NCBI RefSeq assembly: GCF_988242995.1
Contig: NZ_OZ547043.1
Direction: 5' to 3' (one strand)
Length of the DNA: 64,000 bases
Shown here: positions 62,734-64,000 of the stretch, in pieces
Position numbering within the stretch: the first letter of the stretch is position 1
How the letters are laid out: each line of letters begins with the position of its first letter
Translations under genes and position numbers: made by a program
The notes under the pieces: model-generated
The model's database searches: none
What the model saw: only the letters and a program-made list of their open reading frames with translations
What the model was told of the DNA's origin: nothing

Positions 62734-64000
62734 GAGGTGTCCACCTGCAAAATAAGTGGGTGCTTAAGTTACAGGATCCTGGATTCGGGACCAGACGGTA
62801 CTCAGACGACGCTTACAGAGAATGTCCGGAATGACGAGGTTATCTTTGCGGAGATTAAGGCAATGGTATACGGGCCGACGTTCCATGCCGCGTTACTACA
62901 TTCAGCCCGGACGTAAAATGCGCCCGTCAAAAAGAACGGTTCGCTTCGAAACTCAGCCAGGATACCACCTCTCCGCCACACCCGGGAAGAAGTTGATATG
63001 GTGGTTGCCGGACAACAGCACTCCTGGATTGACTGCTGCATCACTCAACCACGCTGAATATCAAAGGAGAGCGTTACCGGTTAAAAGAGAAACGTAAAGC
63101 TGTGGTGATGACCCAAAACGCAACGCCTGTCAGTGAGGATGAAATGGTGAAAAGCGGACAGCATCAGTAACGGAAGTATCTTAGCGGGTACGAAAATGGC
63201 AGGATCGTGACATTGACAGAATATCTCCTGATCATCCTGAATGACTGCAGTTGCTGTAGAAAAGTAAGCTGTCTCCACCCACGGCACCACTTAACAGGCA
63301 TTCCGTAACTTCCCCCAGACTTACTATGACGCATTATCGGTGCACTGAAAACGGGAGAGTGCGCTTAAAACCGCAGACCGCATGCGGGTGTTACTGCATG
63401 ACAGTCTGGCCGTATTGTGAGATGTCGGCAGGAACCGATGTCCGCGCAGGGGGGAACTTCCTGCAGTACCTAACGCTTCAAATGGTATTAACCGTAGGGT
63501 GTTGTTGGTTCCGGATCGCGGAAATGGGAGCACAGGTCTGCTACGGGGTGTACCTCTGACAGTATATCCGGCTCGCTCATCTGACAGCCTCTCTCCCGGA
63601 AAAGACCAAAAATGAGATCGTCTCCTCAACAGCAGAGAAGAGGTCTTGACAGACAGGCTATATTGCATACGATTTATGAAGAAAAAGACAGCAAATATGG
63701 AGGTTATAGCGGAGAATACCCTACGAAATTCCTATGAAAAACGATTGAAAAAAATATCAAATTCGATTCGTTTTTATATGCTTTTTGGGAGCGTGGCGAT
63801 GACGAACTGTTGCATGTGCAGAGGAGAATGCACCCGGAAGCACCAGAATCATCCAGAAAGGCAGAACGATTACGCATCAAACCAGGAGACAGCAATATCA
63901 AGGTAATATACTGATTTAAAATGAATTTACAGCAATACGTGAAAACATTTTTTACTTAAAGGAGACAGATGCGCTGAAGAGAGTGCAGGTATTTTTATAT

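What the first reader, a model, noticed from the sequence alone, without database searches (positions are those of the whole stretch)
62817..64000. Unannotated tail after IS66 copy 2 with a short Cys-rich ORF
After IS66 copy 2 the sequence has only short ORFs. One (63646-63906, plus strand) encodes an 86-aa peptide with a CCMCRGECTRKHQNH cluster. It may be the start of further island cargo extending beyond the window.
Basis: seen in the sequence. Interest (0 to 1): 0.2.

Follow-up and report, generated by a model that had tools for sequence, protein, structure and literature searches.

The report
Chance ORF beside an IS21 relic
The Cys-rich 86-codon reading frame exists, but it behaves like a chance ORF in a non-coding spacer of a common E. 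coli genomic island, next to the remains of an old IS21-type insertion sequence; it is ordinary.

Summary
An 86-codon TTG-start ORF with the CCMCRGECTRKHQNH cluster lies at 63646-63906 (+), and only short ORFs follow IS66 copy 2.

The tail is not featureless:
- 62817-62824: one copy of the 8-bp target duplication of the IS66 insertion.
- 62825-63218: an internally deleted IS21-like relic (istA fragment, istB C-terminus, right terminal repeat).
- 63219-64000: AT-rich spacer that PGAP left unannotated wherever I sampled it. The spacer is present in about 2,090 of 5,426 complete E. coli genomes.

The ORF does not behave as a gene:
- 62% of shuffles of the tail contain an ORF at least this long.
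- Its only database matches are ORF calls from the same E. coli locus, many of them frameshifted.
- 8 of 39 haplotypes break it, through at least six independent nonsense or frameshift events.
- Its substitutions look neutral (7 synonymous, 15 non-synonymous; P=0.23), while three neighbouring genes give P of 1e-5 to 1e-11.
- Its codon usage is non-coding-like, and it has no Pfam or NCBIfam hit.

A PADLOC LmuB hit (E=1e-4) is allele-dependent and has no other support.

The island does continue past the window, but it starts at a 383-aa gene at 64301, not at this ORF. Interest is low.

The parts
60381..62816 (-). IS66-family element ('IS66 copy 2'), 2436 bp, carrying tnpA/tnpB/tnpC. It is a simple insertion.
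   Evidence: The ends are GTAAGCGT... inverted repeats with 20 of 30 bases matching. The genes are annotated in the identical S88 sequence.
60373..60380 (.). Left copy of the 8-bp target-site duplication AGAGAATG
62817..62824 (.). Right copy of the 8-bp target-site duplication AGAGAATG. These are the first bases of the finding.
60289..60380 (+). Left part of the IS21-like istA fragment, split by the IS66 insertion
   Evidence: With IS66 and one duplication copy removed, tblastn aligns IS21 IstA residues 41-134 at 50% identity (E=7e-19), and blastn gives 87% identity to IS21.
62825..63016 (+). Right part of the IS21-like istA fragment. It is a pseudogene with an in-frame stop.
   Evidence: PGAP labels it 'IS21 family transposase, frameshifted, incomplete'.
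63012..63170 (+). IS21-like istB C-terminal fragment (IstB residues 214-265 plus the stop codon), joined to istA by an internal deletion
   Evidence: tblastn gives 81% identity, E=1e-24. PGAP labels it 'AAA family ATPase, missing N-terminus'.
63171..63218 (+). IS21-like 3' non-coding end with the right terminal repeat ...ATCGTGACATTGACA
   Evidence: It matches the IS21 right end ATCGTGGCGTTGACA at 12 of 15 bases, at the junction of tandem IS21 copies in plasmid NZ_CP054233.
63219..63640 (.). Variable non-coding spacer. It contains the chance ORFs 63324-63668 (-) and 63326-63559 (+).
   Evidence: It carries a 19-bp deletion and a 43-bp insertion in other lineages, at 75-98% identity. A six-frame pseudo-protein query found no protein homologue.
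63646..63906 (+). The 86-codon Cys-rich ORF, judged to be a chance ORF and not a gene
63646..63673 (+). Sigma-70 promoter-like site: TTGACA, 16 nt, TACGAT. The ORF's TTG 'start codon' is the first three bases of the -35 hexamer. This is a consensus match only.
   Evidence: One search found 2 such sites in 1.4 kb against 2.5 +/- 1.7 expected. Both hexamers are invariant in all 39 haplotypes.
63970..63995 (+). Weak terminator-like hairpin (6 base pairs) followed by a T run. This is a consensus match only.
   Evidence: One search found 3 such sites against 1.2 +/- 1.1 expected. Two stem substitutions in other lineages keep the pairing, G.U to G-C and G-C to G.U.
63641..64000 (.). AT-rich spacer (32-44% G+C) that continues to about 64300 beyond the window, upstream of the 383-aa gene

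Best explanation
The tail is decayed mobile-element DNA followed by an intergenic spacer of a CP4-44-like E. coli island. An IS66 element inserted cleanly, with an 8-bp duplication, into an older and already deleted IS21-like relic. The relic consists of an istA fragment fused to the istB C-terminus and still has its right terminal repeat, ending at 63218. From 63219 to about 64300 lies an AT-rich, horizontally acquired spacer that precedes a 383-aa hypothetical gene. The 86-codon Cys-rich frame is one of several ORFs that such sequence yields by chance, and it is not a protein-coding gene. The Cys cluster arises from a TG-rich run, TGTTGCATGTGC...TGC. Shown here: the anatomy, the chance expectation, the absence of homologues, the frame breakage and the neutral substitution pattern. 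Inferred: that the spacer's only plausible role is to carry promoter or leader signals for the downstream gene.
For: Anatomy:
- The IS66 target duplication and ends are defined.
- IstA and IstB fragments and the right terminal repeat are identified.
- PGAP annotates the two IS21 pseudogene fragments.

Chance: 62% of shuffles of the tail carry an ORF of at least 86 codons.

Homologues:
- The 5.8-billion-protein search returned 16 hits, all ORF calls from this same E. coli locus, in tiny clusters (1-25 members). Many read the C-terminal half in another frame.
- The exhaustive phmmer search of 1.84 billion representatives found only the same locus, plus one 4472-aa Cys-rich protein at E=3e-4.
- Pfam, NCBIfam and PDB gave nothing.

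Population data, from 60 full-length copies in 39 haplotypes:
- The ORF is broken in 8 haplotypes by at least six independent events: R33*, C55*, and indels of -1, +1, +2 and -1.
- Substitutions across all haplotypes are 14 synonymous, 24 non-synonymous and 2 nonsense, against a neutral expectation of 23%, 72% and 5% (P=0.058).
- In intact haplotypes alone they are 7 synonymous and 15 non-synonymous (P=0.23).
- The same method on the same loci gives GTPase 48/27 (P=4e-11), the 200-aa hypothetical 23/17 (P=2e-5) and the HTH gene 19/12 (P=3e-5).

Other signals:
- Codon-usage log-odds is -0.37 in frame and is not the best of the three frames. Real island genes score +0.2 to +0.3.
- The TTG start sits inside a -35-like hexamer, with GAGG only 2 nt upstream; the later ATGs lack a conserved SD (sequence).
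- PGAP annotates nothing under the spacer in any of the 40 records sampled across the 2,091 that carry it.
Against: - 31 of 39 haplotypes keep the frame open.
- Frame A has somewhat more synonymous changes than the other two frames (14 against 10 and 7; P=0.058).
- The segment 63641-64140 is better conserved between lineages (94-99%) than the IS21 relic (86-99%) or spacer A (75-98%).
- One PADLOC model (LmuB, PDLC03862) matches residues 23-70 at E=1.2e-4, and 10 shuffled peptides do not match it.
- No expression data could be consulted.
- The metagenome copies were retrieved with an exact 22-mer inside the ORF (63817-63838). Variation there is therefore censored.
Confidence: 0.85

Rival explanations
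1. The ORF, or a shorter version from an internal ATG at 63675, 63697 or 63799, encodes a real small Cys-rich and possibly metal-binding protein specific to this island family.
For: The frame is open in 51 of 60 copies. There is a slight excess of synonymous changes in frame A (P=0.058). A GGGAG motif lies 7 nt before ATG 63799 in the S88 allele.
Against: At least six independent disruptions occur in a small sample, and nonsense changes appear at the neutral rate (2 of 40 against 4.7% expected). The GGGAG becomes GGGAAC or GGGCAC in the majority alleles. Codon usage is non-coding-like. There are no homologues beyond the locus. PGAP did not call it in any record I inspected. The most divergent lineage carries a +2 frameshift that removes the Cys cluster.
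Confidence: 0.04
2. The segment 63641 to about 64250 is a functional non-coding unit. It would be either the promoter and long leader of the downstream 383-aa gene, or a separate small RNA transcribed from the TTGACA-N16-TACGAT site and ended at one of the two terminator-like hairpins (63970-63995, or about 64224-64254 beyond the window).
For: The site has a perfect -35 hexamer with 10 of 12 matches overall, and two downstream hairpin-plus-T-run sites. Both hexamers are invariant in 39 haplotypes, and two stem substitutions keep the pairing. The segment is better conserved than its left flank.
Against: Promoter-like sites are no more frequent than in shuffles (2 against 2.5). Terminator-like sites are barely more frequent (3 against 1.2 +/- 1.1). 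Folding energy is ordinary on both strands (z = -0.25 and -0.05). Rfam gives no match even at E<=1. The conservation contrast fits the mosaic, recombining history of these islands: neighbouring blocks range from 75% to 99% identity in the same pair of loci. The adjacent gene is itself only 2-4% diverged, with equal change at all three codon positions.
Confidence: 0.1
3. The ORF region is a relic of the coiled-coil or hook middle of an SMC-like defence protein (Lamassu LmuB type) that once lay here.
For: PADLOC model PDLC03862 (LmuB) matches residues 23-70 to profile positions 301-353 of 643, at E=1.2e-4 and 18.6 bits. The match extends past the stop codon in the same frame, to profile position 386. 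Reversed and shuffled peptides give no hit.
Against: Only one short fragment of one model matches. The other frames and flanks match nothing, and the 383-aa gene matches nothing. Natural alleles 93% identical lose the hit and instead give noise-level Cas2c/d hits at E of about 0.02. Neither half of the peptide hits on its own. phmmer against 1.84 billion proteins found no SMC-like protein, and PDB gave none.
Confidence: 0.03

Closest known systems
IS21 (IS21 family: istA transposase plus istB AAA+ helper)
   Same: 62825-63218 aligns with IS21 at 87-90% nucleotide identity. It covers IstA residues 41-134 (once the piece left of the IS66 is added), IstB residues 214-265, and a right terminal repeat ending in TTGACA.
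   Different: It is a relic. The left end, most of istA and three quarters of istB are missing. istA carries a stop codon. An IS66 interrupts it in this lineage, and an IS100 interrupts it in the CFT073 lineage. The relic is a fixed part of the island backbone in ~2,000 genomes and is not an active element.
IS66-family simple insertion with 8-bp target duplication
   Same: The terminal repeats start with GTAAGCG, tnpA/tnpB/tnpC are present, and there is a perfect 8-bp direct repeat.
   Different: Nothing unusual. It only defines the left edge of the finding.
CP4-44-type cryptic island next to cobU in E. coli (GI-cobU of CFT073; CP4-44 of K-12)
   Same: In S88 the 100%-identical block lies in the island that begins just downstream of cobU, the position CP4-44 occupies in K-12. 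It ends in yeeS/yeeT/cbeA/cbtA/yeeW. CFT073-like strains carry the same relic-spacer-383-aa block. GI-cobU is named in PMC3573123.
   Different: K-12 CP4-44 itself lacks this spacer; blastn found no match.
Spurious ORFs in AT-rich horizontally acquired intergenic DNA
   Same: The ORF length is within chance, codon usage is non-coding-like, homologues are absent, and the frame is unstable.
   Different: None.

Membership tests
Functional small protein gene | Reading frame kept intact across natural copies | tested here: not met
   8 of 39 haplotypes (9 of 60 copies) are broken by at least six independent nonsense or frameshift events.
Functional small protein gene | Purifying selection, seen as an excess of synonymous change | tested here: not met
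   7 synonymous and 15 non-synonymous changes in intact haplotypes (P=0.23); 14/24/2 overall (P=0.058). The controls give P of 4e-11, 2e-5 and 3e-5.
Functional small protein gene | Homologues beyond the same locus | tested here: not met
   Searches return only the same E. coli locus. The 22-mer is absent from 100,044 species-representative genomes.
Functional small protein gene | Start codon with a usable, conserved ribosome-binding site, and coding-like codon usage | tested here: not met
   GAGG lies 2 nt from the TTG. The GGGAG before ATG 63799 is not conserved. Codon-usage log-odds is -0.37.
Functional small protein gene | Evidence of transcription and translation | not testable with these tools
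   No expression data were available.
IS21 family element | istA (transposase) and istB (AAA+ helper) coding sequence in that order | tested here: met
   Only fragments are present: IstA residues 41-134 and IstB residues 214-265.
IS21 family element | Terminal inverted repeats at both ends and an intact element of about 2.1 kb | tested here: not met
   The right repeat is present, ending at 63218. The left end and about 1.6 kb are missing. This is a relic, not an element.
IS66 family insertion | 8-bp target-site duplication and GTAAGCG... terminal repeats | tested here: met
Lamassu LmuB (SMC-like ATPase) | N- and C-terminal ATPase head motifs flanking a long coiled coil; a full-length match to an LmuB profile | tested here: not met
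   Only residues 23-70 match profile positions 301-353 of 643, in one model (E=1.2e-4). The flanks and other frames give nothing, and the hit depends on the allele.
Zinc-ribbon / Cys-rich metal-binding domain | A match to a curated Cys-rich domain model, or paired CxxC motifs conserved among homologues | tested here: not met
   Pfam and NCBIfam give no hit at E<=1. The cluster is CCxCxxxC, and there are no homologues in which to judge conservation.
Known structured RNA (Rfam) | A covariance-model match or unusually stable fold | tested here: not met
   No Rfam match at E<=1. Folding z-scores are -0.25 and -0.05. No tRNA or tmRNA was found.

The most novel reading that the evidence does not exclude
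The well-conserved AT-rich segment from 63641 to about 64250 could be an island-specific transcription unit. It would run from a promoter with a perfect -35 hexamer to a hairpin-plus-T-run terminator. It would produce an unstructured small RNA or a short peptide found only in CP4-44-like islands, which about 38% of E. coli genomes carry.
Probability: 0.07. Interest if true: 0.3.

Novelty: not a real feature. Interest (0 to 1): 0.05.

Why it matters
It matters little. The result removes a false lead: a Cys-rich 'cargo' gene. It also gives the tail of the window a correct map: IS66 target duplication, IS21-like relic, then a non-coding spacer of a widespread E. coli island. The practical lesson is that ORFs of 80-115 codons are expected by chance in such decayed island DNA. 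A population sample with neighbouring genes as positive controls separates them cleanly from real genes.

Tried and rejected
- **Rfam, tRNA and folding.** Rfam at E<=1, ARAGORN and single-strand folding of both strands found nothing.
- **Family libraries.** Pfam, NCBIfam and PHROGs on the ORF, on its frameshift variant and on the other long ORFs found nothing. The best result was PHROGs at E=0.065.
- **Pseudogene test of 63171-63660.** A six-frame pseudo-protein query against 5.8 billion proteins gave no hit. The caveats are that the candidate list reached 8000 and that this is an unorthodox query.
- **Cross-species search.** Peptide patterns of the 383-aa neighbour and a 22-mer from the ORF were both scanned against 100,044 species-representative genomes. 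Neither found anything, so no deeper comparison was possible.
- **Other collections.** K-12 CP4-44 has no homologue of the spacer. Phages give no match and only 3 plasmid records match.
- **Conservation as evidence of function.** I first read the higher conservation of 63641-64140 as constraint. I rejected that as unproven after finding that the adjacent gene evolves without codon-position bias and that block identities are mosaic.
- **PADLOC LmuB hit.** I followed it with flanking frames, natural alleles, peptide halves, shuffles, PDB and the exhaustive phmmer search. It is allele-dependent and isolated, so I treat it as probably spurious.
- **Literature.** One search for an RNA or small ORF in GI-cobU, and one paper read, gave only the island's name.

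Full report
**Observation.** 62817 is the first base after IS66 copy 2. That element spans 60381-62816 (2436 bp). Its ends are GTAAGCGT... inverted repeats, and it is flanked by a perfect 8-bp direct repeat AGAGAATG at 60373-60380 and 62817-62824. The tail is therefore the continuation of the DNA left of the IS. Only short ORFs follow; the longest is 114 aa on the minus strand.

**Source.** Window 50817-64000 is 100% identical to E. coli S88, NC_011742 2053274-2066457. The earlier part of the window is not S88-like. In S88 this block lies in the island that follows cobU, the position CP4-44 occupies in K-12.

**Anatomy of the tail.** I removed the IS66 and one copy of the duplication and compared the healed sequence with IS21.
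- 60289-60380 plus 62825-63016 aligns with IS21 IstA residues 41-134 (50% amino-acid identity, E=7e-19; 87% nucleotide identity).
- An internal deletion joins this directly to IstB residues 214-265 at 63012-63167 (81% identity, E=1e-24). The stop codon is at 63168-63170.
- The IS21-like 3' end follows. Its terminal repeat ...ATCGTGACATTGACA ends at 63218 and matches the IS21 end ATCGTGGCGTTGACA at 12 of 15 bases.
- PGAP annotates the two fragments as pseudogenes, 'IS21 family transposase' and 'AAA family ATPase'.
- The same relic occurs in other island lineages. In CFT073-like strains an IS100 interrupts it at a different site.
- From 63219 the DNA is not IS-derived. G+C falls from about 52% to 32-44% after 63600.
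- The spacer runs to about 64300. A 383-aa hypothetical gene starts at 64301, followed by genes for a YeeP-like GTPase, a dynamin-family protein, an RdcB-family protein and a patatin-like phospholipase, and later yeeS/yeeT/cbeA/cbtA.

**Distribution.**
- The spacer is present in about 2,090 of 5,426 complete E. coli genomes, with up to four copies per genome and never below about 90% identity.
- No feature is annotated under it in any of the 40 records sampled across the ranking. In the wider query, a 'hypothetical protein' label appears in some records. In the two I examined, this is an alternative upstream start of the downstream gene.
- It is absent from phages and present in only three plasmid records.
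- K-12 CP4-44 lacks it.
- A 22-mer from it is absent from 100,044 species-representative genomes.

**Is the ORF more than chance?** No. 62% of dinucleotide-preserving shuffles of the 1184-nt tail carry an ORF of at least 86 codons.

**Homologues.**
- The word-indexed search of 5.8 billion proteins gave 16 hits. All are ORF calls from this same locus, in clusters of 1-25 members. Many read the C-terminal half in another frame (...WERGDDELLHVQRRMHPEAPESS...), so the Cys cluster is not a conserved reading.
- The exhaustive phmmer search of 1.84 billion representatives added only longer calls of the same locus that read TGA as Trp, plus one 4472-aa Cys-rich protein at E=3e-4.
- Pfam, NCBIfam and PDB gave nothing; PHROGs gave E=0.065.

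**Population test.** An exact 22-mer (63817-63838) retrieved 68 metagenome contigs. Together with six genome loci, these gave 60 full-length copies in 39 haplotypes.
- The frame is intact in 31 haplotypes (51 copies).
- It is broken in 8 haplotypes (9 copies) by at least six independent events: R33*, C55*, -1 in the A run, +1 in the A run, +2 in the T run (three assemblies of the most divergent lineage), and -1 in the T run.
- Substitutions in frame A are 14 synonymous, 24 non-synonymous and 2 nonsense. The neutral expectation is 23%, 72% and 4.7% (P=0.058).
- In intact haplotypes alone they are 7 synonymous and 15 non-synonymous (P=0.23).
- The same procedure on the same loci gives the GTPase 48/27 (P=4e-11), the 200-aa hypothetical 23/17 (P=2e-5) and the HTH gene 19/12 (P=3e-5). 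The method therefore has the power to detect real genes.
- Codon-usage log-odds is -0.37 for the ORF's frame, and another frame scores better. Real island genes score +0.2 to +0.3 in frame and -0.4 to -0.6 out of frame.
- Caveat: the 22-mer used for retrieval censors variation in codons 58-65.

**Signals around the ORF.**
- The TTG 'start' is the first three bases of a promoter-like site, TTGACA-N16-TACGAT, at 63646-63673. Terminator-like hairpins lie at 63970-63995 and, beyond the window, at about 64224-64254.
- The promoter-like sites are no more frequent than in shuffles (2 against 2.5 +/- 1.7) and the terminator-like sites barely so (3 against 1.2 +/- 1.1).
- Folding energies are ordinary (z = -0.25 and -0.05).
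- Rfam and ARAGORN found nothing.

**Conservation.** The segment 63641-64140 is better conserved between lineages (2-6% SNP divergence) than the IS21 relic (7-11%) or spacer A (11-18%, with large indels). I do not read this as constraint, for two reasons. The adjacent 383-aa gene is equally little diverged, with equal change at all three codon positions. Block identities along these islands are plainly mosaic: for example 99% / 89% / 78% / 95% / 97% in one pair of loci.

**The PADLOC lead.**
- One LmuB model (PDLC03862) matches residues 23-70 at E=1.2e-4.
- Ten reversed or shuffled peptides do not match, so I followed it up.
- No other frame or flank matches, and neither does the 383-aa gene.
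- Natural alleles 93% identical lose the hit and show Cas2c/d at E of about 0.02 instead. Neither half of the peptide hits alone.
- No SMC-like protein appears in the phmmer or PDB searches.
- I treat the hit as probably spurious. At most it marks a tiny relic.

**Verdict.** The tail is an IS66 target duplication, an IS21-like relic and a non-coding AT-rich spacer of a widespread E. coli island. The Cys-rich ORF is a chance ORF. A functional promoter, leader or small RNA in 63641 to about 64250 cannot be excluded without expression data; I rate it at about 10%. Interest is low.

Noticed in passing
L001 13485-14636 (window-equivalent 64301-65452, just beyond the window): The 383-aa PGAP 'hypothetical protein' WP_000514094.1 has no Pfam, NCBIfam or PADLOC hit and no relative in 100,044 species-representative genomes. 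Its substitutions show no purifying selection: 60 non-synonymous, 25 synonymous and 1 stop, with 30, 28 and 28 changes at codon positions 1, 2 and 3. Yet it stays open in 20 of 23 alleles, and its codon usage is weakly coding-like (+0.07). It may be decaying, diversifying, or not a real gene.
   Followed up: partly
window 1-50816 against S88 (L077): The window is 100% identical to S88 only from 50817 onward. 29372-44284 matches S88 at 97.8%, and the first ~28 kb do not match the S88 yersiniabactin region at all. The window therefore comes from another strain that shares this island segment.
   Followed up: no
L005 2570-4813 and L007 2571-4813 (CFT073-like strains): The same IS21-like relic is interrupted by an IS100 at a different site from the IS66 insertion seen here. 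The relic has been hit at least twice independently by other insertion sequences.
   Followed up: partly
L001 14720-20175 (beyond the window): The downstream cargo is a cluster of a YeeP-like GTPase, a 798-aa dynamin-family protein, an RdcB-family protein and a patatin-like phospholipase. From memory this resembles the LeoABC/RdcAB bacterial dynamin-like modules. I did not test that.
   Followed up: no
P0017, P0018, P0019 (protein database entries for this locus): Some metagenome gene calls of this spacer are 174-190 aa long because they read in-frame TGA codons as Trp (...KDQKWDRLL...). These database artefacts inflate the apparent ORF.
   Followed up: yes
window 63970-63987: In the weak terminator-like hairpin, two substitutions in other lineages both preserve pairing. 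63984 T>C turns a G.U pair into G-C, and 63986 C>T turns a G-C pair into G.U. This is too little to count as covariation.
   Followed up: partly
L001 about 13400-13420 (window-equivalent about 64215-64235): There is a 9-bp tandem duplication polymorphism (TTCTGTACA) at the foot of the second terminator-like hairpin, just upstream of the 383-aa gene.
   Followed up: no
window 63749-63755, 63771-63775 and 63784-63788: Homopolymer runs (A7, T5, T5) inside the ORF are where most of the frameshift variants arise. Some occur in short-read metagenome assemblies and so are probably real.
   Followed up: partly
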